A DNA stretch of 64,000 nucleotides from Clostridiales bacterium (GCA_031265685.1 JAISCI010000028.1:31-64030), one strand, 5' to 3'; positions 1,167 to 55,568 are shown, counted from the first letter of the stretch. Numbers and translations are program-made. Notes: generated by a model not told the origin, from the sequence alone.

Positions 1167-1252
1167 GAATTTTGCGTGAATCATGCAAAATTCATCCAAG
1201 CGAAAATGCTTCGATTCAAGCGAACTTCGCCCAAGTAAACTTCACTTGTTGG
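1167..1252. repeat. Hairpin-module repeat block (X/Y word family)
   Basis: GAATTTTGC-GTGAATCAT-GCAAAATTC is followed by the degenerate words CGAAAATGC, TTCGATTCAA and GCGAACTTC. Confidence 0.7.
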
Positions 1253-1336
1253 CGAGGAGAGCTTCTATAAGAAGCAGGGATACGCGTTCAATGAGGCGGA
1301 TCATCGGGAGTTAAACCGCTTGTTAACGACGGTTGC

Positions 1337-1824: not shown

Positions 1825-1978
1825 GACCGACGTTTGATGTTGTCGAAGACAACATCTGAATTTTGCTTGAATGAATTTTGCATCGCATTATCGTTTGAAC
1901 GAATTTTGCCTAAAGCCGCAAAATTCTGTCACACGATAATGCTTCGATTCACACAAAATTCATCAAGCCATCTTCTTA
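1825..1978 (+). repeat. G-type palindromic element, copy G1 (end1 to end2)
   Basis: End1 is GACGTTTGATGTTGTCGAAGACAACATC, itself a 9-bp hairpin. The core is made of X/Y words. End2 is CATCAAGCCATCTTCTT. Copies with the same ends occur at 3166-3243 and 5318-5460 in the opposite orientation. Confidence 0.8.
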
Positions 1979-3165: not shown

Positions 3166-3243
3166 AAGAAGATGGTTTGATGAATTTTGCGTGAATCGAA
3201 GCAAAATTCAGATGTTGTCTTCGACAACATCAAACGTCGGTCA
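3166..3243 (-). repeat. G-type palindromic element, short copy G2 (end2 to end1)
   Basis: AAGAAGATGGTTTGATGAATTTTGC-GTGAATCGAA-GCAAAATTCAGATGTTGTCTTCGACAACATCAAACGTCGGTC. This is the reverse complement of the G1 termini with a single X hairpin as core. Confidence 0.8.
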
Positions 3244-3523: not shown

Positions 3524-3578
3524 AAAAAACCGGAAAGCGGAACAGAGGGCGGATTCGGGATCCGTCCTCTGTTTTCCG
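3524..3578 (-). terminator. Rho-independent terminator after the cotF-like pair
   Basis: A long imperfect hairpin (AACAGAGGGCGGAT-TCGG-GATCCGTCCTCTGTT, extended by CCGGAAAGCGG pairing) is followed on the minus strand by a T6 run. Confidence 0.6.
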
Positions 3579-3598
3579 TTTCTGTTCTCCGCTTTTCG

Positions 3599-3862
3599 TT
3601 ATACCGCGCAGGGCTGTTGCAGATTCGCCTTGATCTGGTTCGACTCGAGCATATCCGAAGACGGCGGTTGGACGTAATAGCCCTTTTCCGAAGCCAGCTT
3701 GTACAGATCATACTGGAACTTCTCGTCGCCGTCGCGCATCTGCTGAAAAGTCATGCGCAGATCCTGATCGTTCGTCTCGGCGATGTTCTTGGCGTAGGAC
3801 GCAAGCCCCGCCTTCACGCCCGAGAGTATGTCCATAACCATGTCGCGTTCGCTCATTTTCAT
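3599..3862 (-). CDS. Spore coat protein, CotF-like
   Basis: 87 aa: MKMSERDMVMDILSGVKAGLASYAKNIAETNDQDLR...EKFQYDLYKLASEKGYY. This resembles the Coat_F domain. Confidence 0.65.
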   Translation of the reverse strand: MKMSERDMVMDILSGVKAGLASYAKNIAETNDQDLRMTFQQMRDGDEKFQYDLYKLASEKGYYVQPPSSDMLESNQIKANLQQPCAV

Positions 3863-3866
3863 CCTC

Positions 3867-4049
3867 CTACAGCATGTCTACTAATTTCTGGGCGGCCTTT
3901 CCCGATTCCTGCGCCGCGCTCGTGAACATCCGGCGCACTTTCTCGTCCTGGCACCTGCCCGCGTATTCGTTCAGCTTACTCGTGGTCGTCTGATGCGCCA
4001 TAACGGTCTCGCGTATCGCGTTTAACTCAGTCTGGCTGTACGTGGCCAT
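3867..4049 (-). CDS. Small spore-coat-associated protein, partner of the CotF-like gene
   Basis: 60 aa: TELNAIRETVMAHQTTTSKLNEYAGRCQDEKVRRMF. It lies 4 nt upstream of the CotF-like gene, an arrangement typical of two-gene coat loci. Confidence 0.5.
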   Translation of the reverse strand: MATYSQTELNAIRETVMAHQTTTSKLNEYAGRCQDEKVRRMFTSAAQESGKAAQKLVDML

Positions 4050-4103
4050 AATAATCGCGTCTCCCTTCCGTTTGGATAGGATTATTTTTGCCCCGGCGCG
4101 CGC

Positions 4104-5087: not shown

Positions 5088-5269
5088 AGCGCCCTCCCGA
5101 AGGTATTTGTCATTAAAGTAGCTTTTCCCGCGGGAAGGGATTGTATGTGAAATATGTATACGCTGACCTGGGCGTGTTTGAAAACTAGCCCTGACTCCCG
5201 GCCAAGCGGCGACCGCCGCGACTGAAAACGCTTCCCCGCTGTAATTTGTTAACCGACAAATCTGTCGAT

Positions 5270-5514
5270 TAAACAAAAACGCCGTGTACTCCGAGAGTAC
5301 GCAAGTTTTTGGCTGACGATGAAGAAGATGGCTTGATGAATTTTGCGTGACAGAATTTTGCGTGAATCGAAGCATTATCGTGTGGTTCAAACGATAATGC
5401 GATGCAAAATTCATTCAAGCAAAATTCAGATGTTGTATTCCACAACATCAAACGTCGATCAACGACGGGAAATCAGCCGAAAAGACGCCGATTCCATCTA
5501 TGAATACAGGTTCT
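5270..5514. repeat. F-type element, copy F', carrying a nested G-type insertion
   Basis: It shares AACGCCGyGTACTCmGAGAGTACGCAAGTTTTTGGCTGACG and TCAACGACGGGAAATCAGCCGAAAAGACGyCGATTCCATCTATGAATACAGGTTCT with 61680-61780. Those two halves are separated here by about 143 bp. Confidence 0.8.
5318..5460 (-). repeat. G-type palindromic element, copy G3, inserted inside F'
   Basis: GATGAAGAAGATGGCTTGAT...X-6-X-10-Y loop Y-3-X-6-X...CAGATGTTGTATTCCACAACATCAAACGTCG. It is near-identical to the reverse complement of G1. Confidence 0.8.
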
Positions 5515-5758
5515 GAATAGCTGGTCTCAATTATATTGAGCGGTCGATTTTTCGATTATAACGCGCGCCCGTTTTCAGTGATTACAAGAATTCTTTTGCG
5601 GGGGCGGAACTTCTCGCTGATTTTTTGCGTGCGGGTGTTTTTTTCATTTATATTGCCGCCGGGCTCCGAAAGGCGTTCAAGCGAATTTCCATCACGCGAA
5701 AACATGAAAATCGTGTCCGCGCCTGGGAACGGGATAGGCATAAAATCAAATCCCCGCA

Positions 5759-5786
5759 TTGACTTTCACGCGTAAAATGTTATAAT
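5759..5786 (+). promoter_or_regulatory. SigA-type promoter upstream of the ibrA-like gene
   Basis: TTGACT, a 16-nt spacer, then TATAAT preceded by TGT (extended -10). It lies about 27 nt upstream of the start codon. Confidence 0.6.
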
Positions 5787-5812
5787 AAGCTGGAGAATGT
5801 CGGAAGGGGGTG

Positions 5813-7132
5813 ATGTTATTGGCTAAAGTTTACACTGATCAAAATGTGTTCAACGCCTTCATGGACAGAATGGAGTATATATTTTCCAAGTTTGATCACG
5901 TCGTGGTCGCTTTTTCCGGAGGCAAGGATTCCGGCCTGATGCTGGAACTGGTTAACTTATATTACGCGAGGCGCCGCCCCGACGCCAAAGTCTCCGTATA
6001 CCACATCGACTATGAGGGCAATTATCAGTATACCATCGACTACGTATCGCGCTGCATGGGTAAATATCCTTATTTTGACTACTATCACCTTTGTATGCCG
6101 GTTTCGGCTTCATGCGGCGTATCCATGTATCAATCCACATGGATGCCCTGGAATCCGGACGAAAAGGACATCTGGCTCAAGGAACGCCCGCCGGGCGCGA
6201 TAACGCTGGAAAACCACGGCTTCGACTTCTTCAAGGTCGGTATGTCGGACTATGTTTTTCAGACAAAATTCGGCAAGTGGCTTCACAAACGCCGCGGTGC
6301 TAAAAGAACAGCCGTCCTTGTCGGCATACGCGCGCAGGAAAGCCTCAACCGCTATCACGCAGTGACCCGCGACAGCGCCTACCGGATGTTCGGCAAGATC
6401 GCCTACAGCACGCGCGTTTACACGGGTATCTACAATTTTTATCCGCTGTACGACTGGCTGGTCGAGGACATATGGACGGCCAACGCTAAGTTCGGGTTCG
6501 ATTACAATAAACTATACGACCTGTATTATTTGGCGGGCATACCGGTCGTGGAGATGCGCGTAGCCAACCCCTTCCATGAATGCGGAGTGGAAGCGCTCAA
6601 GCTGTTCCGCGCGATCGAGCCGAATACATGGAGCCGGCTGGTCGGACGCGTGAACGGCGCGAATTTCGGCGCGATTTACGGAGGCACGAAAGCGGTCGGC
6701 TACAAGGATATTTCCCTTCCGAAGGGCCACACGTGGAAAACCTACACGGAATTCCTCCTGAACACGCTGCCGTCGCGCACGCGGGAAATATATCGGCGCA
6801 AGTTTGAGACGTCTCTGCGTTACTGGCTTGATAAAGGCGGCGCTCTGCCCGTCAGGGTTGTGAACGAGCTTCGCAAGACGGATATTGTTTTCGAGCGGTT
6901 GGGCAAACCTACCGGAAAACGGAAATACAGGAGCGACCACGAGGTGGTCCGTTTCGCCGAATACCCCGACAGCGTCGATCTGCGGAACTTCCGGTCGCTG
7001 CCCAGTTATAAACGGATGTGCGTGACGATTATGAAGAACGACACGTCATGCCGTTATATGGGGTTCAGCCAGACCAAAGACGAACTGCAGAAAGGAAAGG
7101 AAGCGATGGCCGTATGGGAGAGCCTTATGTAA
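5813..7132 (+). CDS. PAPS-reductase-family ATP pyrophosphatase with a DUF3440-like C-terminal region (IbrA-like)
   Basis: The N-terminus carries the PP-loop VVVAFSGGKDSGLMLELV. The protein is about 440 aa, and its downstream ParB-like partner overlaps it by 19 nt. The exact start is uncertain (GTG 5810, ATG 5813 or TTG 5819). Confidence 0.75.
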   Translation: MLLAKVYTDQNVFNAFMDRMEYIFSKFDHVVVAFSGGKDSGLMLELVNLYYARRRPDAKVSVYHIDYEGNYQYTIDYVSRCMGKYPYFDYYHLCMPVSASCGVSMYQSTWMPWNPDEKDIWLKERPPGAITLENHGFDFFKVGMSDYVFQTKFGKWLHKRRGAKRTAVLVGIRAQESLNRYHAVTRDSAYRMFGKIAYSTRVYTGIYNFYPLYDWLVEDIWTANAKFGFDYNKLYDLYYLAGIPVVEMRVANPFHECGVEALKLFRAIEPNTWSRLVGRVNGANFGAIYGGTKAVGYKDISLPKGHTWKTYTEFLLNTLPSRTREIYRRKFETSLRYWLDKGGALPVRVVNELRKTDIVFERLGKPTGKRKYRSDHEVVRFAEYPDSVDLRNFRSLPSYKRMCVTIMKNDTSCRYMGFSQTKDELQKGKEAMAVWESLM

Positions 7133-7656
7133 GCCCGGTATACAGCGTCATACGCGTTCCGATCGGGAAAATCCAGGCGAACGCGCACAACCCGAACCGC
7201 GTGCCGCCGCCGGAGATGAGGCTGCTCATCAAGTCCATTCTGGAGGACGGCTACACAATGCCTATCGTCTGCTATTATCTGGCGGACGCCGACCGCTATG
7301 AGATTGTCGATGGGTTTCACCGGTATCAGGCCATGAGGCTTTGTCCCGAGATTGCCGAGCGGGAGGGAGAATGCCTGCCCGTGTCCGTGATTGACAAGCC
7401 GCTGACGAGCCGCATAGCCAGCACGATCCGTCATAACCGCGCGCGCGGCGTTCATTCCATTGATCTGATGGTGGACATCGTGGCGAAGCTCGCCGAGGCT
7501 GGGCGGAGCGACGCGTGGATTATGGACAATATCGGCATGGATTCCGACGAGCTGCTGCGGCTCAAGCAGATAAGCGGGCTGGCCTCGCTGTTCGCGGACA
7601 GGGAGTTTTCGCCGGCCTGGGAAAGCGACGCCGTCGCCGGGACAGTCGGAACCTAG
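7114..7656 (+). CDS. ParB-like nuclease domain protein (IbrB-like)
   Basis: Translation from ATG 7114 gives MGEPYVSPVYSVIRVPIGKIQANAHNPNRV...EIVDGFHRYQAM...IRHNRARG, which contains the ParB/Srx-type motifs. It overlaps the 3' end of the upstream gene. Confidence 0.75.
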   Translation: MGEPYVSPVYSVIRVPIGKIQANAHNPNRVPPPEMRLLIKSILEDGYTMPIVCYYLADADRYEIVDGFHRYQAMRLCPEIAEREGECLPVSVIDKPLTSRIASTIRHNRARGVHSIDLMVDIVAKLAEAGRSDAWIMDNIGMDSDELLRLKQISGLASLFADREFSPAWESDAVAGTVGT

Positions 7657-7746
7657 AGCCGAACACTTGGGGCGCCGCCCCGCACCCCGCCCGCTTTCCA
7701 TCCCGAAAGCGGGGCAAAGAACTTTCATTTATGAAGGAGCCGTTAT

Positions 7747-8280
7747 ATGGAAATTAAACTGATTGAGCAAAAGCCGCTGACTACTTTAGCTGTGCGTGAA
7801 ACCGCCTCCGGCGCGGAATTGCCGCGGGTTATCAGCGCGGGCTTCGCGCGGGTGTACGATTATATCGTCAAAACCGGCGCTCAAATCATCGACGCGCCCT
7901 ACGCCGCCTATATAAACATGGCCGGCGACAGCTGGGATATTGAAATCGGATTCCCCGTCGCTCGGGAAACGCCGGAAAACGGTTCGGAAGTTTGCGTGAA
8001 CCAGGCAAACTCCCCAGACACGAACCATCCAGAACAAATGTCAACCTTGATTCCGAAACAGCATGAGATTTTCCCGAGCGTAATCCCGGCGGGACGAGCC
8101 GCCGCCGCGCTTCACAAGGGTTCATACGCCGGTCTGGAAGCGGTTTACGGCGAGCTGTTCAAATGGGTCGGGGATAACGGCCTTAAACAGTCCGGAGCGC
8201 CGTATGACCGCTATCTCAACGACCCGTCGGTTACGCCGGAGGACGAGCTGCTGACTAACGTCGTTATACCGGTAATCTAA
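7747..8280 (+). CDS. GyrI-like small-molecule-binding domain protein with an internal ~26-aa insertion
   Basis: MEIKLIEQKPLTTLAVRE...EIGFPV...IPAGRAAAALHKGSY...YDRYLNDP...VVIPV matches the GyrI-like / AraC effector-binding fold pattern. A GGAG RBS is present. Confidence 0.7.
   Translation: MEIKLIEQKPLTTLAVRETASGAELPRVISAGFARVYDYIVKTGAQIIDAPYAAYINMAGDSWDIEIGFPVARETPENGSEVCVNQANSPDTNHPEQMSTLIPKQHEIFPSVIPAGRAAAALHKGSYAGLEAVYGELFKWVGDNGLKQSGAPYDRYLNDPSVTPEDELLTNVVIPVI
7987..8073. repeat. Hairpin-module sequence embedded in-frame in the GyrI-like CDS
   Basis: 7987-8013 (GAAGTTTGCGTGAACCAGGCAAACTCC) matches 19451-19477 (GAATTTTGCGTGAACCAAGCAAAATTC) at 23 of 27 positions, and the G/C changes fall at paired positions. 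The rest of the insert is degenerate. Confidence 0.6.
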
Positions 8281-8468
8281 TTCCACTTAGAATTTGCGCC
8301 GGATATTTTTTCGAGCTTGCGTGTCCGAATTTTGCTTAGTTCACACAAAATTCTCATCGGAATTTTGCTTGGTTCGCACAAAATTCTCATCGGAATTTTG
8401 CTTGGTTCACGCAAAATTCTTAGGGGCGGCCGAAAATATTCGGCGTCCTTTAGAGTGGAATTAGTATA
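8278..8468 (+). mobile_element. TIR-bounded non-coding element, copy A (MITE-like, no ORF)
   Basis: Left end: (ATC)TAATTCCACTTAGAATTTGCGCCGGATATTTTTT. Right end: CCGAAAATATTCGGCGTCCTTTAGAGTGGAATTAGTAT. Homologous ends occur at 59764-59931 and, inverted, at 18181-18415. It lies between two convergent genes. Confidence 0.75.
8327..8420 (+). repeat. Tandem array of a 33-bp hairpin unit, about 2.9 copies, inside element A
   Basis: The unit GAATTTTGCTTrGTTCrCrCAAAATTCTCATCG starts at 8327, 8360 and 8393. Confidence 0.9.
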
Positions 8469-8482
8469 AATAGGCTGCGCGG

Positions 8483-9649
8483 TTATCTCGCCAGTTCCAG
8501 TATTTGGGCGACATCGGCCCGCGTAAGCGGCGTGCTGGCTCCGATCAGACCGTTTTCCGGCATTTGCGTCATATCGGCGAGTTTGCCCAGCGAGTCCGTC
8601 GGTATGCCCGCCTGCGCGAAGCTGACCGGCATACCGAGACAGCGGAAGAATCCCTTGGTCGCCGCGATACATTCTCTCGCGGCGCCGGCGCCTTCAAGCC
8701 CGAACACACGCCGGCCGTACCGCGCGAACCGGGCTTCGTCGTTTTTGTAAACATATTGCATCCAGGCGGGCATTATCACCGAAAGCGACACTCCGTGCGG
8801 CGTGTCGTACAGCGCGCTCAGCTCGTTGGCTATTATATGCGTAGCCCAGTCCTGCGCCCGGCCGACGCCTAGCGTGTCGTTGTGGGCGATCGCAGCCGTC
8901 CACATGGCTTGGGCGCGCAGCTCGTAGCTGTCCAAATTTTCCAGAAGTTTCGGCCCGAACGACGCCACCGCGGCCATGGCGCCCTCCGCCATATGGTCTA
9001 TAATCCCGAATTCGGCGTCGTTCGTAAAATACCGCTCCGCGATGTGGCTGAACATATCCACAAGCCCGTTCGCCGTTACGGAAGCAGGCAGGCTCCGCGT
9101 AATATCGGGGTTCATTAAAGCCAGCTCCGGCTGTATGAACGGACTGCTCGCCAGCCGTTTTTCTGACGTTTCGGCGTTATTGATGACCATGACGCCGCTT
9201 GACTCGCTGCCGCTGGCCGGATTGGTCAGCAGCGCCGCCACCGGCAGCGCCGCGCGTATCGCGGCCCTGCCGGTAAAGAAGTCCCACACGTCTCCGTCAT
9301 ACGGGACTCCCGCGGCGACCGCCTTCGTATGGTCTATGACCGCGCCGCCGCCGATAGCCAGAAGTCCTCGCGATCCGGCGGCGCGGACCGCCTCGATACA
9401 CTGGTATACGCGGGAAAGGCGCGGGTTCGGCTCCGTTCCGCACATAAACTCGCCCCAGCGGACGCCCGCCGCGTCCAGCGCGTTCTTGACGCCGTCGAGC
9501 AGACCGCCGTCGTAAAGGAACCGGCTTCCGTTGTGGCAGATCGTCACCGCGGTAAGGCCTTTTGCCGCGAGTTCCGCGCCCGCGCGGGCGTCGGCGTGTT
9601 TCCCGAATATAAACCGCGTTTTAAGCGAAAACTCAAAATCCCTCATCAT
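8483..9649 (-). CDS. Iron-containing alcohol dehydrogenase (butanol-dehydrogenase-like)
   Basis: MRDFEFSLKTRFIFGKHA...LAIGGGAVIDHTKAVA...HGVSLSVIMPAWM matches the Fe-ADH family pattern. The start is taken at ATG 9649 or 9646, just after the upstream stop codon. Confidence 0.85.
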   Translation of the reverse strand: MMRDFEFSLKTRFIFGKHADARAGAELAAKGLTAVTICHNGSRFLYDGGLLDGVKNALDAAGVRWGEFMCGTEPNPRLSRVYQCIEAVRAAGSRGLLAIGGGAVIDHTKAVAAGVPYDGDVWDFFTGRAAIRAALPVAALLTNPASGSESSGVMVINNAETSEKRLASSPFIQPELALMNPDITRSLPASVTANGLVDMFSHIAERYFTNDAEFGIIDHMAEGAMAAVASFGPKLLENLDSYELRAQAMWTAAIAHNDTLGVGRAQDWATHIIANELSALYDTPHGVSLSVIMPAWMQYVYKNDEARFARYGRRVFGLEGAGAARECIAATKGFFRCLGMPVSFAQAGIPTDSLGKLADMTQMPENGLIGASTPLTRADVAQILELAR

Positions 9650-11044: not shown

Positions 11045-11157
11045 CATACTAATCCCATTTAGATTTATGGATAAAAATTTTTCAAGCGTCAGCGCGTTCG
11101 CGCGGCTTTAAGCGCGAACTGAAAAATTTTTATCCGTCTTTTGAAATGGGATTAGTA
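11045..11157 (+). mobile_element. TIR-bounded element, sister subfamily, copy D
   Basis: ATACTAATCCCATTTAGATTTATGGATAAAAATTTTT ... AAAAATTTTTATCCGTCTTTTGAAATGGGATTAGTAT. The 15-bp termini are perfect inverted repeats. The right arm supplies the last codons of the EamA ORF. Confidence 0.75.
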
Positions 11158-12089
11158 TTAAGGCAATGGCCGCCCCAGAATACGCCCGCCGTCACCAGCA
11201 GCGAGCCGGCGACCACGGGAAGCGTGATCTTGGCGCCCAGGATAAGCGCCGACGCCAGCACGGAGATTATGGGCAGCATATTCGCGATCGCGACGACAAG
11301 GACGACGTTTCCCCTTCTCATCGACATATTCCAGAAGATCGTCGCGCACAGCGACGATAACAGGATCTGGAACGCCAGCTCTGCGCCGGATTCGATCGGG
11401 TTCAGGATCGAATTGCCTAAGGATTCGCGGCTGAACCCGCGCGAATACAGCTCGCTGCCTGTTTCCGGGCTGAACGTCAGGGCAAGCGCCATAAGCGCCC
11501 CCGCCGCCAGCATAAAATAGCCTACGCCGTCGAAATCCGAGCGGACATGTTCCATATATTTACGCGTCAGTATCGAGAACAGCGCCCACGCCGCGGCGGA
11601 AGCCAGAGCGATCAGCGCGGACGGCAGTATGAAGCCGTCGGAGAGGATGTACGCGGCGTCCTGCCCGTAGCCCCCGCCCCACACGGTTATCGCGGCAGCG
11701 CCCGACGCGCTCAGGGCGAAACTGCCCCAAATCCAGCGGGACGCCTTCTTCTTCAGGACAAGCGGAGTCAGCAGCATCGCGAAGACCGGCCACATGAACT
11801 TTATTACTCCGACGGCCAGAGCTTGCTGGCGCGTCTGCGCGACGGCGGTGGACACGTATGACGAGAGCACGTAAAAGACGTACAGCGCGCCGCAGACAAA
11901 GACGTACCGCCTGGGAAGGGCGCGCATATCCCCCCAGCTCCCGTGACGCAAGCGGGACGCCGCGCAGATCAGCGCGCCGGACAGCAGGTTGACCAGCGCG
12001 CCGGAGGTAAACAGTCCAAGACGTTCCGCCAGCGTGCGGGTAAACGCCCCGCTGACACCCCAAATCACGACGGCCGCCGCGCCCAGCAA
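11130..12089 (-). CDS. EamA/DMT-superfamily transporter
   Basis: 319 aa with about 10 hydrophobic segments and a two-fold EamA-like organisation. The start is TTG. The C-terminal NTNPISKDG is encoded by element D. Confidence 0.7.
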   Translation of the reverse strand: MLGAAAVVIWGVSGAFTRTLAERLGLFTSGALVNLLSGALICAASRLRHGSWGDMRALPRRYVFVCGALYVFYVLSSYVSTAVAQTRQQALAVGVIKFMWPVFAMLLTPLVLKKKASRWIWGSFALSASGAAAITVWGGGYGQDAAYILSDGFILPSALIALASAAAWALFSILTRKYMEHVRSDFDGVGYFMLAAGALMALALTFSPETGSELYSRGFSRESLGNSILNPIESGAELAFQILLSSLCATIFWNMSMRRGNVVLVVAIANMLPIISVLASALILGAKITLPVVAGSLLVTAGVFWGGHCLNTNPISKDG

Positions 12090-12124: not shown

Positions 12125-12174
12125 AGACCAATCCCATTTTCAAGGACGGATAAAAATCTAAATGGGATTAGTAT
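12125..12174 (-). mobile_element. Minimal copy E of the D-type element, termini only, inverted relative to D
   Basis: AGACCAATCCCATTTTCAAGGACGGATAAAAATCTAAATGGGATTAGTAT equals the reverse complements of the D right arm and D left arm joined at GGATAAAAAT. Confidence 0.7.
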
Positions 12175-17442: not shown

Positions 17443-18084
17443 TCACGCGGGCGAGCCGTCCGGGTCTTCCGCGAAATCGTCCGTACCGTCCAGGGAATAC
17501 TGGCTGCGCAGGCGCTTGGGTATGTACTTGAGGATAACGTAGGCGATGGCGAACGCGATAGCCCGGTCGATCAGGTTCTCGATCATGGACGAGGCGAAGA
17601 TGGATCCCAGTATTTCCTGCGTCGCCGCGATCAGCGTCACGGTCAGCAGGGACGATCCGGTCGCGCCCGTCGCGCCGCCGAAAACGAAATACGTCACGCT
17701 GCCCGCCAAAGCCGCCGATACCACGGTGGAGGCGAGCCAGATAATCACGACGCCCCAAATCTTTTTGAACAGCCCCGCCCTCATCATAAACCCGACGACC
17801 AGCGCCACGCCGACGCTGACGACGGAATACGGCAGGTAGACCGGATTGGAGACAAGAGCCAGGAAAATATTAGTAAGCAGACCGACCAGCGCCGCAACCC
17901 ACGGTCCGGCCAGCGCCGCCGAGACTATGGTGCCGATCATATCGAGAAATATCGGCAGCTTGAGATTGGAGGCAAGCATACCGCCGACCAGGTTTATACC
18001 CACCGCGATCGGGATGAGCACGATAGCCTTGACCGAAAACTGATCTTTGATGCCTTGGATAAAGCTTTTCTTGTTTTTGCCCAT
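17443..18084 (-). CDS. ECF transporter substrate-specific S component; substrate unknown
   Basis: Translation from ATG 18084 (GGGAGGA RBS) gives 213 aa with about 6 TM helices in an ECF S-type topology (YkoE/ThiW-like feel). The acidic C-terminal tail is DGTDDFAEDPDGS. Confidence 0.7.
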   Translation of the reverse strand: MGKNKKSFIQGIKDQFSVKAIVLIPIAVGINLVGGMLASNLKLPIFLDMIGTIVSAALAGPWVAALVGLLTNIFLALVSNPVYLPYSVVSVGVALVVGFMMRAGLFKKIWGVVIIWLASTVVSAALAGSVTYFVFGGATGATGSSLLTVTLIAATQEILGSIFASSMIENLIDRAIAFAIAYVILKYIPKRLRSQYSLDGTDDFAEDPDGSPA

Positions 18085-18180
18085 GATTAGTCCTCCCATT
18101 GACATGATTGATACTAATCTCAATTATCCCCTGATTGAGATCAGCGCAATGCATCCCGCGCGGGGATACAATCGTCTGTC

Positions 18181-18415
18181 ATACTAATTCCATTCTATAA
18201 GGACGCCAAATATTTTTTCGGTCCGCTCCTGGAATTGTGCATCGCATTATCGAGTGACAGAAGTTTGCGCGAATCGAAGCATTATCGTGTGGTTCAAACG
18301 ATAATGCGATGCAAACTTCGTCCAAGCGATAACGCTTCGAACCAAGCAAAATTCAGAGCCGCGCGGACGCACGCGCTTAAAGAATATCCGGCACAAATCT
18401 GAATGGAATTAGTAT
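18181..18415 (-). mobile_element. TIR-bounded non-coding element, copy C (inverted relative to A and B) with a four-stem X/Y core
   Basis: ATACTAATTCCATTCTATAAGGACGCCAAATATTTTTTCGG ... AAGAATATCCGGCACAAATCTGAATGGAATTAGTAT. The core at 18232-18354 is a nested palindrome. Confidence 0.8.
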
Positions 18416-18421
18416 CAGCGA

Positions 18422-19153
18422 TTAACGCTCGCTTTCATCTTCCGCTCCGATGTCCGCGACCGCCTGCTCTATGACCGAATCGAGCATCTCGCGGATCGAC
18501 CGCTCACCGAGAGCCGTATCTTTTTCCGCGATGGCTTGGACTATCTTCGTGTGCAGCGCGACGCCCTCCGCCGCGCCGACGGGCGAAAGCGTCAGGCGGA
18601 TGGATTTTTCCACTAACTCGCTTATGGCCTTGCACGCGTTGGAGATCAGCGGGTTTTGTGTCATCTGCGCCAGTTTCAGGTGAAACATCGTGTCGAAATA
18701 GGCGTAAGAGTTATAGTCGGACAGATTATCCCCCATCATGACCGTGTACCGCTTCAGTAGCTCCACATCGCCCGGGCGCGCCCTCTCTATCGCCAGCCGG
18801 ACCGTGCCGGCCTCCAATATCTTCCGATACTCCAGGAGGTTGAGTATGTCTTTACCGCCGGGCTTCGCCACGGAGAGCATCGTCTTGAAATAGTCCCCCG
18901 AGTTAAACTCTTTTACAAAAGATCCCCTGCCTTGCTGAGTCTCGATGAGATTCAGCGCGACGAGCTTTTGCAAAGCCTCGCGCACCGTGATGCGGCTGAC
19001 GCCCAGTTCGCCCGTGAGCTGGTTCTCGGAAGGTATTTTCCTTCCCGGTTTCCATTGCCCCGACGTTATCTTCTCGAGCAGAGTTTCATACACTTGAGTC
19101 CGGGCGTCGTTTTTATCCAAGCCATCTCCCTGAATGAATTCCAGGTTATCCAC
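18422..19153 (-). CDS. GntR-family transcriptional regulator (FadR/FCD subfamily)
   Basis: The start is GTG with an AAAGGAGG RBS. The wHTH is KIPSENQLTGELGVSRITVREALQKL, followed by an all-helical C-terminal FCD-like domain. Confidence 0.85.
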   Translation of the reverse strand: MDNLEFIQGDGLDKNDARTQVYETLLEKITSGQWKPGRKIPSENQLTGELGVSRITVREALQKLVALNLIETQQGRGSFVKEFNSGDYFKTMLSVAKPGGKDILNLLEYRKILEAGTVRLAIERARPGDVELLKRYTVMMGDNLSDYNSYAYFDTMFHLKLAQMTQNPLISNACKAISELVEKSIRLTLSPVGAAEGVALHTKIVQAIAEKDTALGERSIREMLDSVIEQAVADIGAEDESER

Positions 19154-19422
19154 CTCCTTTCCGACTTATAATACAAGTCGAGAAATTATATTATAACTTC
19201 GATATTTGTATTATAAGATAGATTTTTTATTTACGCAATACACGAAACCTACAAACTTTCGAGCGTATTGTTGTGCATATTGCCGCCGCGCGGTTGTCGC
19301 CGTAACCCAGTTGTATTTTCATTTCATAAACTTCGGTAACATCCAAGAAAACGGGCGGTCAGCGGAAATTCAGACTCATAAGCATTAAGGCGCGGCAAGA
19401 AGGCGCGGCAAACGCCGGCCAA

Positions 19423-19512
19423 GAATTTTGCATCGCATTATCGCTTGATGGAATTTTGCGTGAACCAAGCAAAATTCGTCCACGCGATAATGCTTCGAAC
19501 CGCGCAAAATTC
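19423..19512. repeat. Three-stem nested palindrome (X/Y word family)
   Basis: GAATTTTGC-ATC-GCATTATCG-7-GAATTTTGC-GTGAACCAA-GCAAAATTC-7-CGATAATGC-TTCGAACCGC-GCAAAATTC. Confidence 0.85.
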
Positions 19513-19700
19513 CGCAGCCACGGATATTTTGATAAGTGCAAAGAGGATGCGCTTGCGCGGATACGGCGGCGTCTGCCCGGAGGGGCGAAATATTATAACA
19601 TATATCGATCACTAAAGCCATGTATATTTCAATGATTTCATGTACTGAAGGGGCGAAAAGATATAATTTACGTCGCCCCGCCATCCATTGCACATTCCTA

Positions 19701-30628: not shown

Positions 30629-30686
30629 GTAGCGGTTGGCGGATCTTAATTATAATGGGCGGCGGATTTTTCAGTTGACAAATACA
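30629..30686. repeat. Copy 2 of the ~58-bp conserved sequence (see 29-86)
   Basis: GTAGCGGTTGGCGGATCTTAATTATAATGGGCGGCGGATTTTTCAGTTGACAAATACA, located 22 nt beyond the stop codon of the FrhB-like gene. Confidence 0.6.
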
Positions 30687-30707: not shown

Positions 30708-31897
30708 TCAGGCGTTTCCCTTCCTTAGCGCCGAGCGCGCCTTCCAGAGAGCGTACCGCGCCCAATTCACAGCCTCCTTCGGCACAAACCGCCGGATCAT
30801 ATTGGTTGCAGACTTTCCCGCCGTCTTTCTGTAAAGCTCGCCGAACGGCTCGCTGTCAAGCCCCGCGAAGAAATCCCCGCGCCGCTTATTTGTGCCGCTC
30901 GAAGCGTATATGCCGTGGTTGAAGGCGCAAGCTTCCCCAACGCTCGAAGCGATTGTATCGCAAAACGGCGCCAATCGCCCAAACAGCTCCTCGCCTTTGG
31001 CGGTATTTACCATGACGAGCGATACGCCCCGACCATCGTCGAAACGCCCGAGCATCTGCCTGCCGCCCCAGAAATCCCCTATGGTCACGTCCGCGCCCGA
31101 GCGAAATCCTTTGGCCGCGCAGTCGCGGCACGACGGCCGCAGGAACAGATTTACCATGAAGCCCAGCATGTACGGCGAATCGTCGTCCCGCTCCGTTTTG
31201 CCGTCAACAACCAGAAGCGTGTCGAGCGCGGTCTGCCAGCGCTTCCGCTTATGCCGGAACGCGAGGCCAGTCGGCGCGGAACCAAAACGCCGCGCCGCGT
31301 CTTTGATGTATTTGTCAAGAACTTTCTGGCTGGGCACGCCATGACATACAAAATCGACAATAGTCAAGCGGTCTCGGTTCACGCTGAATTCCGCCAAAAA
31401 GCGACGCAACCCCAGTGCCTGGCACGGCGTACCAGTGAAGAGGACGCGCTCGCCCCTGTCAAGAAATTCCTTGCAACGGACGTAACTGTCTCCGATGTCG
31501 GACTGTACATATTTGGAACCGCGAAAGCGTGCGTACGATCCATCCGTGACGAAGGAGTGCCGGCAGCGCATTCCGCGCATCTCGCTGCCAAATATTGCCC
31601 CCCCCCTATCATAAAGTCCTCAGCGATCAGCGAGAAAACGCCGCCCGAGGTGGACGCGCCGCGAATGGCGTCGTCTCGGGCTTTAACGCCCCAGACCGAG
31701 ATAGGGCCGCCGCCAAGGGCCAGCGACGCGTACTGGCAAACCCTCTCGCAGATCCCGCACTCGGAGCACCTGTCTTTTGCCGCGACAGGATACGCAAAGC
31801 CCTCTCCGTCGCTTACCATGGAAATGGCCCCATGCGGACACGCTGCCTGGCAGGCAGAGCATCCGCAGCAAGCCCCTTTATTAATTATATCAATCAT
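30708..31897 (-). pseudogene. Coenzyme F420 hydrogenase/dehydrogenase beta-subunit-like protein (N-terminal 2x[4Fe-4S] ferredoxin), interrupted by a frameshift in a G9 tract
   Basis: The N-terminal frame reads MIDIINKGACCGCSACQAACPHGAI...CSECGICERVC...TSGGVFSLIAEDFMIGGG. The C-terminal frame (30708-31580) resumes with ...FRGSKYVQSD...FTGTPCQ...VCHGVPS. One extra G would join them into about 396 aa. Confidence 0.8.
31598..31606 (-). repeat. Homopolymeric tract: C9 on the plus strand, G9 on the coding strand
   Basis: Read directly as ATTG-CCCCCCCCC-TATC. It sits exactly at the point where the frame changes. Confidence 0.95.
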
Positions 31898-33143
31898 CAG
31901 CCAACGCCCTTTCGAGATAATCGGCGGAGAACCGGCGCAACTCGCCCAGCGCGGCGTTGGACGCCGAGAAATCCACTTCCGCGGCGCCCGGCGTCAGCCA
32001 CTTAGACCAATCCCCGGACAGATCCGCCATGCGGTCCATCAGCCCGGTCTGCGACAGCAGCGAGGACGCCCGCTCGTTACGGTAACACGCGACCGCATAG
32101 AACGGGATATTGAAGTTGACGGCGAAAGCCGTGCCATGGAACGAATTGGTCACGACGAACCGCGCGCGGGCCAACAGCTCCACGAACCGCCTGGGATCGG
32201 CCGTGGATTCGTAGCGCGTGGATGGTGAAAGATCCGCCAGAAACCGCTGGTCGATGATAACGGGTGTAAGGCCCAGTATCTTCGCCAGCTTTTTGGCGAA
32301 GCCGTATACGCGCACACGGTTCGACAGCGCGTACACGACAAGCGTATCATCTCGGGATTTCGCCTGATTCACGCAAAATTCCCTTTCGTCCTCAATACCG
32401 AGCGAGGAGAGCCATTCCCCTCGCGTGAGCATCAGCGTCGGGTCAAGCGCGCAGACTGCCTCAATCCCCAGCGCCTCGCGGACTTTCCCGACATGCTGCG
32501 CTTCCCGCACGGAAACGGCGGAGTACGCCCGCAAATAACCCGCGATCCTCTCATTGACGGCTCGGTCGGCGAATTTATAGTTACCGAACGAAGCGGAATA
32601 CGCGACGCGCCTGACACCCTCGGGTAGGAATCCAAGGAAATAAACCGGCGTCACGCCGAAATACATCGGATTCCATATTTGGTCGCTGCCGCTTACCGCC
32701 GCGTCATAACCTGAAAATCCCTCGGCGACGCTTTCCTCCGCATACTCCTGTGTATAGGCTATGTACGTATCCCAAAACCTACGGTAATTCGCGATAAGGC
32801 GACGGCGCTTTCCGTAGTTGACAATATCGGAAACCATCCCGTAGACGCGGTTCATCAGTTCCGGCAACAGCTCGGACTTCTCGAGCTTAGCCGCTCCCCC
32901 GCCGATCTTTTTGCGCGAAAATACGGATCTCACTGTAGAAAAAGCTATCACTATGAATCCGACCCGCACCGGCCTAACGGTAGCGGCGACCATGCCGTGC
33001 CGGTAATCCAAGCACTTTACGTCAAAGCGGCGGCTCAGGCACGCGAACAGCGCGAACTCCTGCAGACTGCCGCCGTAGTTGACGTTACGGCTGAACGTTA
33101 CTAACAGTATCTTCCTCGCGCCCGGCTTCGGATTGTCTGACAA
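31890..33143 (-). CDS. Polysaccharide pyruvyl transferase family protein (CsaB/WcaK-like)
   Basis: ILLVTFSRNVNYGGSLQEFAL...GSDQIWNP...VVTNSFHGTAFAVNFNIPF matches the PS_pyruv_trans pattern. The start is TTG and overlaps the upstream gene. Confidence 0.8.
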   Translation of the reverse strand: MSDNPKPGARKILLVTFSRNVNYGGSLQEFALFACLSRRFDVKCLDYRHGMVAATVRPVRVGFIVIAFSTVRSVFSRKKIGGGAAKLEKSELLPELMNRVYGMVSDIVNYGKRRRLIANYRRFWDTYIAYTQEYAEESVAEGFSGYDAAVSGSDQIWNPMYFGVTPVYFLGFLPEGVRRVAYSASFGNYKFADRAVNERIAGYLRAYSAVSVREAQHVGKVREALGIEAVCALDPTLMLTRGEWLSSLGIEDEREFCVNQAKSRDDTLVVYALSNRVRVYGFAKKLAKILGLTPVIIDQRFLADLSPSTRYESTADPRRFVELLARARFVVTNSFHGTAFAVNFNIPFYAVACYRNERASSLLSQTGLMDRMADLSGDWSKWLTPGAAEVDFSASNAALGELRRFSADYLERALADD

Positions 33144-42331: not shown

Positions 42332-42345
42332 GCCGTTTCCCTCCC

Positions 42346-44383: not shown

Positions 44384-44653
44384 GTGGCGCACAGGCTGGC
44401 CGCTATCGCCGTGAGTGAGGCCAGGGCGGCGCTGGACGGAGCCGGCGCGCTGAATGCGCCAATTCTACCCGGCGTCTATTCGCTGTCGCCGGTTGCGTCT
44501 GCCCGGCGTGTTCATCCGACGGAAAAGCCGCTGATGAATTTTGCGGGTTCAGGCAAAATTCAGGCGCTTATGCGCGAACTGGTAAAGATTGCTGGCAACC
44601 GCTTTGTACGCGTACGAGGTTTTGACGATTCAAACGCGCCAGAGCGTTGTTGA
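44384..44653 (+). pseudogene. Fragment of an N4/N6 DNA methyltransferase (HPTxKP motif) carrying a hairpin-module insertion
   Basis: ...ARRVHPTEKPL[MNFAGSGKIQ]ALMRELVKIAGN.... The bracketed residues are encoded by GAATTTTGC-GGGTTCAG-GCAAAATTC (44536-44561). The flanking catalytic regions are absent or degenerate. Confidence 0.5.
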
Positions 44654-44862: not shown

Positions 44863-44952
44863 TGAATTTTCGCGGGTTCGAAGCATTATCGCTTGGACGA
44901 ATTTTGCTTGGATCCGCAAAATTCCATCACGCGATAATGCGATGCGAAAATT
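44863..44952. repeat. Three-stem nested palindrome (X/Y word family)
   Basis: GAATTTTCGC-GGGTTCGAA-GCATTATCG-7-GAATTTTGC-TTGGATCC-GCAAAATTC-7-CGATAATGC-GAT-GCGAAAATTG. Confidence 0.85.
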
Positions 44953-53483: not shown

Positions 53484-55568
53484 TCACGCTTCGTTTTCGG
53501 AATCTTGCGGATTCACACAAAACTCCTCCGATTCGTACTCGGATTCCCGCTCGGCGTCATAAGCTTCGCGTTCCGCGTCGGCAATGGCTCGATCCGCCAG
53601 CTTCTTCGAGAGACTCAGTTTTTTCTTCTCTACGTCAACGTTCGTAACCTGCACCCGCACGAACTGACCAAGCTCCAACTCATCCTCGGGCTTTTCAATG
53701 CGATGCTCGGCGATCTGGGATATGTGGACAAGGCCATCAATGCCATCGGGAAATTCAATGAAAGCGCCGAAGGGCACGAGACGCACTACTTTGCCCTCGA
53801 CAATAGACCCGACCGGATACCGTTCCACGGCGGAATACCACGGATTGTTCTCCTCCGTGCGCAAAGACAGCGAAATCTTTTCCTTATCGCGGTTGATGTT
53901 AATGACCGTAGCCGTAACCTCGTCGCCCTCGCTCAACGCGTCCGAGACGTGTTTGACACGGTTCCACCCCAACTCGGAGATGTGGATAAGCCCGTCTACG
54001 CCGCCCAGATCGACAAACGCGCCGAAATCCGCGATACGGCTCACCTTCCCCGTCACAACGGCGCCAATGTCGAGCGCGTTGAACACAAGCTCTTTCTTCT
54101 CGGCGGCCTGCCTGCGCGCAAGTTCACGCCGGCCCGCGATGACGCGGCGCTTGGATTTATCCACCTCAAGGATATTGAAATCCAGCTCCTGACCGACATA
54201 GGCTCTCGTGTCCTCTACATAACGCCCGGCAATCTGGCTCGAGGGCACAAAAGCCCGAACCTCGTTGATAACCGCGATAAGCCCGCCTTTGACCGCGTCT
54301 ACGACTTTTCCCGTAAAGACACTCTTCTCCGCCACGGCCGCCTCAAACTCATCGAGACTCTTCTGGCTGTCAACGCGCTTCTTCGAGAGCAGGACGTTTC
54401 CCTCGCCGTCGTTGACCCTGATGACAAAGACATCTATCTCGTCGCCGGGTTTAACATAGTCGGCGGGATTCTTGTTCGGATCATCGGAAAACTCAGAGCG
54501 TTGTATCAGCCCGTCGGACTTGAAACCGATATTGACCGAAACCTCGCCGGTCGGGGTGACGGAAATAACCGTACCTCGGATGTAATCGCCTGTATGTAAA
54601 GTGACCAGCGATTCGTTCAGCATCTGCTCAAACTCCGCCTCAGGCACGACGTCAACGCTCGCCTGGGCAATTTCGACATCCGGCGCGCCGCTGTCTTCGG
54701 CGCCTTGTCCGTTGGGGTTCTCAAATTCGCTCATCAGTCTGACAGCCTCCTTTATTATCGCCGGGGGCGTGGAAGCCCCCGCTGTGATACCAATTATATC
54801 CGGGCGGCAAACCGCCGCCCATTCGCGTATCCCGGAAAGCGCCTGCCATATATCCTCTCCAAAGAATACCCGATCCGAGCGTTCCGCGCAAACCTCGGCG
54901 AGCTTCCGCGCGTTTGAGCTGTCGGCGTCGCCAAGTACGACCATAGCGCCGCATTCGGCGGACAACCGCGCGGCTTCGTCCTGCCGCGCGCGCGTAGCGC
55001 CGCATATTGTCTCGCGGCACTCGACAGCAACACCCCTCGCGGACAAAACTTCGGCTATTTCCGCGTACGTGCCGTGTCTCAGCGTGGATTGCGCGAGCAG
55101 TACGCATTCGCCGACATCGGACAGATCGCTCGCCCGCGCTTCATCCGCCGAACCAAAGACGACAGCGCGGCCAGCCCAGCCGATAATCCCGATTACCTCG
55201 GGATGACTCGCGTCCCCGGCGACGATAACCGTCTTGCCGGACACCGAAGCTTCTCGCGCCAATCGTTGGATACCCGCGACGAACGGACATGTGCAGTCAA
55301 TAATATCGACGCCGCGTTTACGCAAATCTTCGTAAACCCGAGGCGGAACGCCGTGACTGCGTATCGCGACGCGCGACCCAACCGGAACGTCCGCCGCCGT
55401 CCGAGCGACACGAACGCCCAATCCCGCCAACCCTTCCGTGACGCGTCTGTTGTGGATGACGCTGCCCAACGTATATATCTTGCCTTTACGCGCTTCATTA
55501 TATACACGCCGCACGGCGGAGCGGACGCCGCCGCAGAAACCGGCGGACATCGCCAGCGAAACTTTCAC
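53484..55568 (-). CDS. ispH: Fusion of 4-hydroxy-3-methylbut-2-enyl diphosphate reductase with 30S ribosomal protein S1
   Basis: The N-terminal IspH part ([17 protein letters not shown]) is followed by four S1 repeats (e.g. [64 protein letters not shown]). Confidence 0.9.

What the first reader, a model, noticed from the sequence alone, without database searches (positions are those of the whole stretch)
18232..18354. Nested-hairpin repeat family built from two 9-nt stem words, with compensatory stem substitutions
At least 13 loci in this window are assembled from the same two words and their complements: X = GAATTTTGC/GCAAAATTC and Y = GCATTATCG/CGATAATGC.

The loci are 1167-1252, 1337-1459, 1858-1961, 3182-3209, 5338-5427, 7987-8013, 8327-8420, 18232-18354, 19423-19512, 44268-44373, 44536-44561, 44863-44952 and 59826-59881. 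The words are arranged as concentric stems. For example, 18232-18354 reads X1 Y1 X2 Y2 - loop - Y2' X2' Y1' X1'.

Where a stem word departs from consensus, its partner departs in the complementary way:
- GAAGTTTGC (18260-18268) with GCAAACTTC (18311-18319)
- GAATTTCGC (1372-1380) with GCGAAATTC (1423-1431)
- GGATTTTGC (1337-1345) with GCAAAATCC (1451-1459)
- GAATTTTCGC (44863-44872) with GCGAAAATTG (44943-44952)

This covariation fits the nested pairing scheme. It argues that base pairing, in folded ssDNA or RNA, is what is being maintained. I do not recognise this as a named repeat family, and no transposase, RAYT-type or integrase gene is present in the window.
Basis: seen in the sequence. 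Interest (0 to 1): 0.78.

Follow-up and report, generated by a model that had tools for sequence, protein, structure and literature searches.

The report
Tiny nested mobile hairpin DNA repeats
An uncultured Clostridia genome carries a family of very small (27 to 60 base) hairpin-forming DNA elements that have copied themselves between genes, into the loops of each other and even in-frame into genes; it is a new example of a known class of selfish palindromic repeats, and what moves it is unknown.

Summary
GAATTTTGC (X) occurs 31 times and GCATTATCG (Y) 16 times, against about 1 expected for each. All 13 reported loci exist and fold as concentric stems.

The grammar is richer than two words:
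- The basic unit is a 27-nt hairpin, X-KTGRWYCAM-X'.
- A fixed 60-nt two-tier composite, which I call U, reads X-GTGAATCGAA-Y-loop-Y'-GAT-X'.
- Either unit can sit in the apical loop of another copy, or of unrelated palindromes.

It is in a pyruvyl transferase and a GyrI-like protein, and in both the segment is absent from 10 homologs. A degenerate copy lies in the IspH/S1 tail. In a second Oscillospiraceae MAG, two copies disrupt a PAPS-reductase gene. The family is therefore mobile DNA.

Compensated stem changes are real: 3 positions, 4 cells, about 0.1 expected. Arm-to-arm template switching could also produce them, and flipped loops point to that process.

There is no Rfam match, no hit in viral or JGI contigs, and no copy in the loci sampled from the nearest relatives. 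No transposase lies in the window.

Verdict: a new, ultra-short, self-nesting variant of the REP/RPE/SDR class. The mobilising enzyme is unidentified.

The parts
1167..1252 (.). Simple X hairpin (1167-1193), followed by decayed right-hand arms (Y'*, X'*, X'*) of a nested stack whose left half is missing
   Evidence: 45.3 bits
1337..1459 (.). Double composite: an outer U with an inverted U in its Y loop. Both X layers carry compensated substitutions (A2G, T7C).
   Evidence: 85% reverse-complement copy of 18232-18354
1858..1961 (.). U with a simple X hairpin (1901-1926) filling its Y loop, plus an unpaired outer X. It lies in the carrier element 1821-1977.
3182..3209 (.). Simple X hairpin with the loop GTGAATCGAA, inside the carrier element 3166-3246
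5319..5458 (.). A ~140-nt carrier element that is an insertion relative to the paralogous empty site at 61723/61725. It holds X around U at 5338-5427 and a second hairpin, GATGTTGT..ACAACATC.
7987..8013 (+). Variant X hairpin read in-frame as EVCVNQANS. It lies inside an 81-nt (27-aa) insertion, about 7981-8061, in the GyrI-like gene 7747-8280.
   Evidence: confirmed in an independent Logan assembly
8327..8419 (.). Three tandem X hairpins (period 33 nt) at the centre of the long palindrome 8283-8467, between convergent genes
18232..18354 (.). The reported locus: an outer U (inverted) with a U in its Y loop. It sits at the centre of the 235-nt palindrome 18181-18415, whose outer arms are ATACTAATTCCATTC/GAATGGAATTAGTAT.
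19423..19512 (.). U with a simple X hairpin (19451-19477) in its Y loop. It is a 92% reverse-complement copy of 44864-44952.
32355..32381 (-). X hairpin read in-frame as EFCVNQAKS inside the polysaccharide pyruvyl transferase gene 31890-33143
   Evidence: 39.6 bits
44268..44373 (.). Truncated left half of a U (44268-44310), then a simple X hairpin (44347-44373), in a gene-poor, decayed region
44536..44561 (.). Simple X hairpin inside the short ORF 44384-44653 (HPTEKPL[MNFAGSGKIQ]ALMRELV). This may be a methyltransferase remnant; that is not confirmed.
   Evidence: no Pfam hit
44863..44952 (.). U with an X hairpin in its Y loop. The outer stem carries a compensated 1-nt insertion.
53500..53525 (-). 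Degenerate X hairpin read in-frame as EFCVNPQDS in the C-terminal tail of the IspH/S1 fusion gene. The tail lies beyond the part matched by NCBIfam (1-678 of 694).
   Evidence: 34 bits
59826..59881 (.). X around a degenerate X, at the centre of the palindrome 59773-59931
   Evidence: the Logan contig ends here

Best explanation
This is a family of non-autonomous, ultra-short palindromic mobile DNA elements.

**Units.** The minimal unit is a 27-nt hairpin: a 9-bp stem X and the loop KTGRWYCAM. The loop adds a conserved G.A or T.C mismatch, two more pairs and a triloop. A 60-nt derivative (U) carries a Y hairpin fixed inside X. Any complete hairpin, whatever it contains, seems able to be copied as a unit.

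**Targets.** New copies land preferentially in single-stranded apical loops. These include their own Y and X loops and the loops of unrelated long palindromes. This builds concentric stacks. Occasionally a copy lands in a coding sequence, where in-frame copies survive.

**After insertion.** Three processes reshape the stacks:
- slippage deletions between direct word repeats;
- spacer inversions between the arms;
- arm-to-arm template switching, which keeps the arms complementary.

**Shown versus inferred.**
- Shown: the repeat family; the nested anatomy; filled versus empty paralogous sites; insertions into genes; an excess of double-sided stem changes.
- Inferred: movement as a folded single strand, catalysed in trans by a structure-recognising enzyme encoded elsewhere in the genome. 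An HUH/Y1 transposase of the RAYT or IS200/IS605 kind is the leading candidate.
For: **Over-representation and nesting.**

**Insertions into genes.**
- A 9-aa EFCVNQAKS segment is absent from 10 pyruvyl-transferase homologs.
- A 27-aa segment containing the hairpin is absent from 10 aligned GyrI-like homologs. Nearly all of the 119 other listed hits are 149-157 aa, against 177 aa here.
- In L021, two hairpins inside a PAPS-reductase gene are absent from phage homologs. One introduces a stop codon and the other a +1 frameshift.

**Paralogous filled and empty sites.**
- The Y loop TGTG^GTTCAAA is empty at 5372-5400 and 18279-18307. It is filled by ACA plus an X hairpin at 1885-1942.
- The carrier 5319-5458 is absent at 61723.

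**Loop targeting.** Five of 8 complete U units have an occupant in an 11-nt loop, whereas about 0.02 would be expected for random placement of about 15 events in 64 kb (derived).

**Composites copied whole.**
- 1337-1459 matches 18232-18354 at 85%.
- 19424-19512 matches 44864-44952 at 92%.

**Pairing.** Four compensated cells were seen against about 0.1 expected. The covariation score exceeded all 500 shuffles.

**Sequence reality.** Independent Logan contigs are 100% identical over the in-gene copies and break inside repeat loci.

**Restricted distribution.**
- The covariance model finds family-grade hits (39-48 bits) only in the window and L021. Stem-only chance matches score 28-34 bits.
- The GroEL-flanking loci of four relatives lack the words.
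Against: - No mobilising enzyme was found in the window or in the 5.4 kb beyond it.
- There is no target-site duplication and no consistent flanking motif, so the chemistry is open.
- The direction of the filled/empty differences between paralogous copies cannot be polarised. Some simple forms can be derived from complex ones by deletion between short direct repeats.
- Only about 70 kb of one genome and 5 kb of another were available, so copy number, strand bias and polymorphism are unknown.
- Loop enrichment could partly reflect survival: insertions into stems destroy recognisable copies.
Confidence: 0.75

Rival explanations
1. The family is a REP/REPIN-type or IS200/IS605-derived element in the strict sense. 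Hairpins would be cut and rejoined as single-stranded DNA by a single-copy RAYT/TnpA(Y1) enzyme encoded elsewhere in the genome. This is a more specific form of the best explanation.
For: - The stem-loops are short and carry a conserved mismatch that gives them polarity.
- They have no TSD.
- They are tolerant of sequence but not of pairing changes.
- They insert in single-stranded loops.
- TTGAT or TGAT lies directly 5' of several outermost copies. From memory, TTGAT is the ISDra2 target.
Against: - There is no Y1_Tnp or RAYT gene in the window.
- There is no conserved GTAG-like 5' tetranucleotide.
- Flanks are heterogeneous.
- REPINs are inverted doublets of REPs, not concentric stacks.
- A literature search found no paper linking RAYT, REPIN and Firmicutes.
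Confidence: 0.3
2. There is no dedicated enzyme. Copies would spread and nest by replication or repair template switching and gene conversion between loci that share loop microhomology (KTG...CAM) and 9-nt words. The same process would homogenise arms and flip spacers.
For: - Spacer inversions are seen. In L021 the loop is TTG-AAC-CAC in one copy and TTG-GTT-CAC in the other, with identical flanks. The linkers of 18232-18354 are flipped relative to 1337-1459.
- Slippage deletions occur between direct words.
- Template switching is documented to homogenise inverted-repeat arms, invert spacers and create compensatory changes (PMC8604942, PMC8794818).
Against: Insertions into unrelated coding sequences show no visible homology to the element. 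They are hard to obtain by homology- or microhomology-driven copying alone.
Confidence: 0.15
3. The hairpins are functional host elements kept for a cellular role, and their spread is secondary. Candidate roles are RNA stabilisers, RNase III or terminator structures, or binding sites for a host protein.
For: - Most copies are intergenic, and several sit between convergent genes or just after stop codons.
- The predicted folds are strong (z = -3.7 and -5.6).
- An RNase III gene is present in the window.
Against: - Copies occur in both orientations and in divergent promoter regions.
- They disrupt a gene in L021 and sit inside ORFs.
- No T-tract follows the stems.
- No Rfam family matches.
- The family is absent from the loci sampled from the closest relatives, so it is not a conserved host function.
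Confidence: 0.08

Closest known systems
REP / BIME / REPIN elements of Proteobacteria (mobilised by RAYT Y1 transposases)
   Same: Both are short (about 20-40 nt) imperfect palindromes and highly repeated. They are mostly extragenic. A conserved mismatch gives them polarity. They are combined into mosaics through a small set of linker motifs and have no TSD.
   Different: - There is no GTAG-type 5' motif and no RAYT in view.
- Units here are concentric (stem inside loop), not side-by-side inverted doublets.
- The host is an uncultured Clostridia lineage.
- Some copies lie in-frame in genes.
Rickettsia palindromic elements (RPE)
   Same: Both are palindromic selfish repeats inserted in-frame into unrelated protein-coding genes as well as between genes (PMC10969869). 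Their mobilising agent is unknown.
   Different: RPEs are about 100-150 bp. This unit is 27 nt (9 aa) and nests in itself.
Cyanobacterial small dispersed repeats (SDR; Elhai et al. 2008, Genome Res 18:1484). The paper was not held, so the comparison is from memory.
   Same: Both are mobile-looking repeats of only 21-27 nt. They are associated with hairpin contexts and found within one another.
   Different: The sequences and the host phylum are unrelated. I could not re-read the paper, so the detailed comparison is untested.
Short palindromic repeats of Volvox carteri organelle genomes
   Same: [quoted passage not shown] They occur in both orientations and their mechanism is unknown (PMC2670323).
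   Different: [quoted passage not shown] The family here is bacterial, has a defined two-word composite and has in-gene copies.
IS1397/ISKpn1-type insertion into REP loops (known from the literature cited in PMC3116915)
   Same: A mobile element targets the apical loop of a palindromic unit.
   Different: Those are full insertion sequences with a transposase. Here the inserting element is itself a 27-60 nt hairpin.

Membership tests
REP/REPIN (RAYT-associated) | Short imperfect palindrome, highly repeated, mainly extragenic | tested here: met
REP/REPIN (RAYT-associated) | Conserved 5' tetranucleotide (GTAG-like) next to the hairpin foot | tested here: not met
   Flanks are heterogeneous. Only a loose KTG+2-3 nt or TGAT context is present.
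REP/REPIN (RAYT-associated) | A cognate RAYT (Y1 HUH) gene in the genome, typically flanked by REPs | not testable with these tools
   There is none among about 55 window ORFs.
REP/REPIN (RAYT-associated) | Replicating unit is an inverted doublet of two REPs (REPIN) | tested here: not met
   Units are single hairpins or concentric stacks.
Classical MITE (DDE-transposase derived) | Terminal inverted repeats plus a target-site duplication of fixed length | tested here: not met
   The arms are inverted repeats. However, no duplication longer than 1 nt is seen at the Y-loop filled/empty pair or at 5319-5458 versus 61723.
Rickettsia palindromic elements (by behaviour) | In-frame insertion of a palindromic repeat into unrelated ORFs, absent from orthologs or homologs | tested here: met
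   disruptive insertions
Rickettsia palindromic elements (by sequence or size) | About 100-150 bp elements of the RPE-1 to RPE-10 sequence families | tested here: not met
   The unit is 27-60 nt and the host is unrelated. Sequence comparison with RPE consensus sequences was not run.
Integron attC sites | R''/L''...L'/R' imperfect palindrome with a GTTRRRY core, bounding gene cassettes next to an integrase | tested here: not met
   There is no GTTRRRY core (the loops read GTTCAAA), no cassettes between copies and no integrase.
Described structured RNA families (Rfam 15) | Match to a curated covariance model | tested here: not met
   There were 0 hits at gathering score over the window. There were 0 hits at E<=1 over 1000-8600. 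Over 18000-19700 only chance-level hits with E >= 0.5 appeared.
Intrinsic terminators | GC-rich stem followed by a T-run | tested here: not met
   The X and Y stems are AT-rich with no trailing T-run. The only terminator-like hits are the carrier's GATGTTGT hairpin followed by the T-run inside X.

The most novel reading that the evidence does not exclude
The element is a self-targeting hairpin. Its integration would be directed by structure to the apex of any DNA hairpin, including its own. That would make stacks grow recursively from the centre outward. A 27-nt stem-loop would be the complete cis-requirement. This implies either a new structure-specific integrase or nuclease, or an enzyme-free route through host replication and repair. 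The fixed reading frame and orientation of all four in-gene copies (E-F-C-V-x-Q-x-x-x) would then reflect a mechanistic coupling rather than selection.
Probability: 0.25. Interest if true: 0.8.

Novelty: new variant of a known kind. Interest (0 to 1): 0.58.

Why it matters
How the very smallest bacterial repeats (REP-like, RPE, SDR) move is still largely unresolved outside the REP/RAYT case.

This family offers an unusually clean system:
- The unit is only 27 nt.
- The 60-nt composite is clearly defined.
- Nesting events can be read directly.
- There are recent gene-disrupting insertions and in-frame survivors.
- A covariance model separates true copies from chance hairpins.

If complete genomes of the two carrier lineages reveal a linked enzyme, or none, the mechanism becomes directly testable with oligonucleotides.

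Practically, these loci break short-read assemblies and inflate ORF calls in MAGs of this lineage.

Tried and rejected
- **Exact 21-mer X-ATC-Y.** There were 0 hits in viral contigs and 0 in one genome per species. The 2 hits in JGI metagenomes were chance matches in AT-rich coding DNA.
- **Gapped X-hairpin scan of genomes.** Only L021 is family-like.
- **Viral scans** with a loop-constrained X hairpin and with a Y hairpin found nothing related.
- **Synthetic 1198-aa query** made of six-frame translations of the repeats, meant to fish out spurious ORFs on other copies: no hit at E<=10. That search was wasted.
- **Nearest GroEL relatives** (next four hits by score; BLASTP identity about 81-82% for two and not reported for the other two) were fetched to look for the family or for orthologous empty sites. 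There was no synteny and no X or Y words.
- **Extending the contig.** 5.4 kb past the window end holds no copies. The ispF look-up found nothing.
- **The Elhai 2008 SDR paper** could not be read.
- **Rejected readings:** integron attC sites, CRISPR, terminators, riboswitch or sRNA, and DNA-uptake sequences. The anatomy and context do not fit.
- **Methyltransferase remnant at 44384-44653.** This idea got no Pfam support.
- **Flank comparison.** I searched for a consistent target motif or TSD by tabulating all flanks. Nothing emerged beyond a loose KTG+2-3 nt context.

Full report
**Observation**

The two 9-mers are massively over-represented. GAATTTTGC (X) and its complement occur 31 times, against 0.99 expected. 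GCATTATCG (Y) occurs 16 times, against 1.04 expected.

The reported locus 18232-18354 reads X Y X Y loop Y' X' Y' X'. It folds as predicted, at -26.7 kcal/mol as DNA with z = -3.7. Together with the larger palindrome around it (18181-18415) the fold is -80.4 kcal/mol as RNA, z = -5.6.

**Host and context**

The window has 57% G+C. It encodes a GPR spore protease, an IspH/S1 fusion, GroEL and RNase III, so the host is a spore-forming member of the Clostridia. The identical GroEL is on record as 'MAG: Clostridiales bacterium' on a 73,765-nt contig.

Independent Logan contigs from run SRR14710922 are 100% identical to the window. They end inside repeat loci at about 59901 and 8373, as expected for multi-copy DNA.

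Pfam and NCBIfam scans of about 55 ORFs found no transposase, HUH/Y1 enzyme or integrase.

**Anatomy**

Tabulating what follows and precedes every word shows that the grammar is tighter than two words.

- **The simple unit** is a 27-nt hairpin, GAATTTTGC-KTGRWYCAM-GCAAAATTC.
  - One loop end reads GTG and the other CAA, or TTG and CAC.
  - The 9-bp stem is therefore followed by a conserved G.A or T.C mismatch, two more pairs (TG/CA) and a triloop.
  - The mismatch gives the hairpin a polarity.
- **Y never occurs on its own.** It is always embedded in X through the same two linkers, giving a 60-nt composite U = X-(GTGAATC/TTGGTTC)GAA-Y-TGTGGTTCAAA-Y'-GAT-X'. An example is 5353-5412.
- **Inner layers** are joined to outer ones by 7-nt spacers of the form N-K-T-G-R-N-N on both sides. 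An inner layer can be inverted relative to the outer one.
- **Other palindromes carry the stacks.** The stacks often sit at the centre of other, unrelated palindromes. The two-word description therefore covers only the inner layers.
  - One is a family with outer arms ATACTAATYCCATT and inner arms CCGAATATTTTTTCGG and GTCCGCGC. It occurs at 8283-8467, 18181-18415 and 59773-59931. Hairpin-free relatives lie at 11046-11158 and 12125-12174.
  - The other is a ~140-nt carrier element present three times (1821-1977, 3166-3246, 5319-5458). Each copy holds different hairpin content: 104, 28 and 90 nt.

**Evidence that the family is mobile DNA**

1. The 27-nt hairpin at 32355-32381 is translated in-frame as EFCVNQAKS inside a polysaccharide pyruvyl transferase. 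All ten aligned homologs have an 8-10 residue gap exactly there.
2. The hairpin at 7987-8013 (EVCVNQANS) lies in a 27-residue segment of a GyrI-like protein. That segment is absent from ten aligned homologs. The protein is 177 aa, whereas nearly all of the 119 other listed hits are 149-157 aa.
3. A degenerate copy (EFCVNPQDS) sits in the C-terminal tail of IspH/S1, beyond the conserved part.
4. The only other carrier found is contig L021 of an Oscillospiraceae MAG. There, two hairpins lie inside a phage-type PAPS-reductase gene.
   - Phage homologs read GCIGCPMAG..R..EF..FP.Y straight through.
   - L021 has a hairpin after GCIGCP that brings a TGA stop, and a second one 40 nt later that shifts the frame.
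   - A third copy reads EFCVVQAKL in a small ORF.
5. Paralogous copies give filled and empty sites.
   - The Y loop TGTG^GTTCAAA is empty at 5372-5400 and 18279-18307. It holds 'ACA + X hairpin' at 1885-1942.
   - The 140-nt carrier at 5319-5458 is missing from the otherwise 95-98% identical sequence at 61681-61780.

No target-site duplication longer than 1 nt is visible at these junctions.

**Nesting is not random**

Five of the eight complete U units have an occupant in their 11-nt Y loop. Random placement of about 15 events over 64 kb would put about 0.02 there (my arithmetic).

Some composites are themselves copied as units. 1337-1459 and 18232-18354 are 85% identical reverse-complement copies. 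19424-19512 and 44864-44952 are 92% identical. There are therefore at least five independent nesting events, and any complete hairpin appears able to be the copied unit.

**Covariation**

I scored 30 stem layers, or 270 base-pair positions.

| Class | Positions |
|---|---|
| Both arms consensus | 256 |
| Compensated double changes | 4 |
| Change in one arm only | 10 |

The compensated changes are A2G, T7C and T4G, the last seen twice. With independent arms, about 0.1 compensated positions are expected.

On the distinct X stems, three pairs and four cells change on both sides. These values were reached in 13/500 and 4/500 shuffles. The covariation score was reached in 0/500 shuffles, and none of the slid registers reaches it.

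So the signal is real, but it rests on few events. It does not prove selection for pairing. Template switching between inverted-repeat arms is documented to homogenise arms, invert spacers and generate apparent compensatory substitutions (PMC8604942, PMC8794818).

Spacer inversion is visible here in two places:
- The two L021 copies share flanks (AAG...ATCG) and the outer loop bases, but have GTT versus AAC at the centre.
- The 7-nt linkers of 18232-18354 are flipped relative to those of its copy at 1337-1459.

**Distribution**

- The 21-mer X-ATC-Y is absent from viral contigs and from one genome per species. It appears in JGI metagenomes only as two chance matches.
- A gapped X-hairpin scan of genomes returned mostly unrelated hairpins.
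- A covariance model built from 15 copies (R1) scores true copies at 33-48 bits. It finds 14 simple hairpins in the window and three in L021. The other 99 loci, which were selected for perfect X stems, reach only 28-34 bits.
- The GroEL-flanking loci of four relatives lack the words.
- Rfam has no match.
- A full-text search for the words found only an unrelated paper.

**Interpretation**

The best reading is a lineage-restricted family of ultra-short, non-autonomous palindromic mobile elements. They prefer single-stranded hairpin loops as targets, and so build concentric stacks. They occasionally land in genes.

I infer, but did not show, three further steps. The hairpin would move as folded single-stranded DNA. 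An enzyme encoded elsewhere would handle it. An HUH/Y1 enzyme is the leading candidate, because it explains three things:
- structure rather than sequence recognition;
- the absence of duplications;
- a liking for single-stranded targets.

An enzyme-free route by template switching is the main rival. It explains arm homogenisation and flips well, but explains insertions into unrelated ORFs poorly. A host-function reading (RNA stabiliser or protein-binding site) is weak, given gene disruption, both orientations and absence from the relatives' loci I could fetch.

**Comparison with known systems**

- It behaves like REP/BIME mosaics: polarised short palindromes joined by fixed linkers.
- It behaves like Rickettsia RPEs: in-frame insertions (PMC10969869).
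- From memory, it resembles cyanobacterial SDRs: 21-27 nt, hairpin context.
- It resembles Volvox organelle palindromes, which are explicitly described as inserted within one another (PMC2670323).
- It fails the tested defining features of REPINs (doublet structure, GTAG motif), classical MITEs (TSD), attC sites and terminators.

I therefore file it as a new variant of the short palindromic selfish-repeat class, not as a member of a named family.

**Unexplained**

All four intact in-gene copies use the same orientation and reading frame (E-F/V-C-V-x-...). Five of the six orientation-and-phase combinations are open. The chance of this is about 0.008 given the first copy (my arithmetic). Whether it reflects selection on the peptide or a mechanistic bias is unknown.

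Noticed in passing
window 8283-8467, 11046-11158, 12125-12174, 18181-18415, 59773-59931: A separate family of long palindromes has outer arms ATACTAATYCCATT/AATGGRATTAGTAT (9 hits against 0.4 expected). Their interior ranges from a 20-nt loop to 200 nt of nested stems. The '+' arm lies within 0-15 nt of the stop codon of a minus-strand gene in 5 of 5 cases. This may be another mobile or regulatory palindrome that acts as a landing pad for the X/Y hairpins.
   Followed up: partly
window 5319-5458 (also 1821-1977 rc, 3166-3246); empty site at 61723-61725: A ~140-nt element, AAGAAGATGGCTTGAT[X stack]AGATGTTGTCTTCGACAACATCAAACGTCG, carries a second 9-bp hairpin. It is inserted in one of two otherwise 95-98% identical sequences. 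It has no clear target duplication.
   Followed up: partly
window 5459-5519, 61610-61780; both ends of L106: Another repeat, CGATTCCATCTATGAATACAGGTTCT, forms a 172-nt imperfect palindrome at 61615-61780. It also bounds both ends of a 7.7-kb Logan contig, so it is multi-copy in the genome.
   Followed up: no
window 29-86, 5510-5567, 30629-30686: There are three copies (60-86% identical) of a 58-nt motif, GTAGCGGYTGGCGGATCTTAATTATAATGGG..GGA..TTTCA.TT..CAAATACA. It may be a shared promoter or leader.
   Followed up: no
window 5810-7132 and 7018-7656: This is an IbrA-like protein (PAPS_reduct + DUF3440) followed by a weak ParB_N protein. The pair resembles IbrA/IbrB and lies immediately next to a hairpin carrier. 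In L021 a different PAPS-reductase gene is the victim of two hairpin insertions. This is probably coincidence.
   Followed up: partly
window 7987-8013, 32355-32381, 53500-53525; L021 3953-3979: All four intact in-gene hairpins are read in the same frame and orientation (E-F/V-C-V-x-...), although five of the six orientation-and-phase combinations are open.
   Followed up: partly
L007, L017, L025, L032, L039, L044, L063, L064, L068, L083, L086 (various gut Clostridia MAGs): A different conserved hairpin uses the same stem word in a fixed context: ATAGTAATCGAT-GAATTTTGC-N7-GCAAAATTC-GCGCGTGAAAAA, with a variable loop. It recurs across many MAGs. It may be an undescribed cis-regulatory element.
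   Followed up: no
L121 1446-1990, 4969, 14452, 16435: A relative (GCA_031550435.1) carries 7 copies of TATTACCGCGGAAGTT within 21.6 kb. In 6 of them it continues as ~AAGTACCGTATAAAATACTTACGCGGTTAC, with variation. The motif is unrelated to X/Y.
   Followed up: no
window 43600-46420: This 2.8-kb gene-poor stretch has only short ORFs. They include an RHH-like antitoxin candidate (45114-45284) and three hairpin loci. It looks like a decayed mobile or prophage remnant.
   Followed up: partly
window 40988-43584; 39824-40171; 40190-40280: Two tandem paralogous HtrA-like protease genes lie here. Upstream is a 105-127 nt direct repeat (79-80% identical), next to a C-run and a G-run.
   Followed up: no
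L104 8996-11035, L105 5426-7663: GroEL genes of two relatives are called as 679 and 745 aa rather than about 540 aa. These are probably over-extended ORF calls.
   Followed up: no
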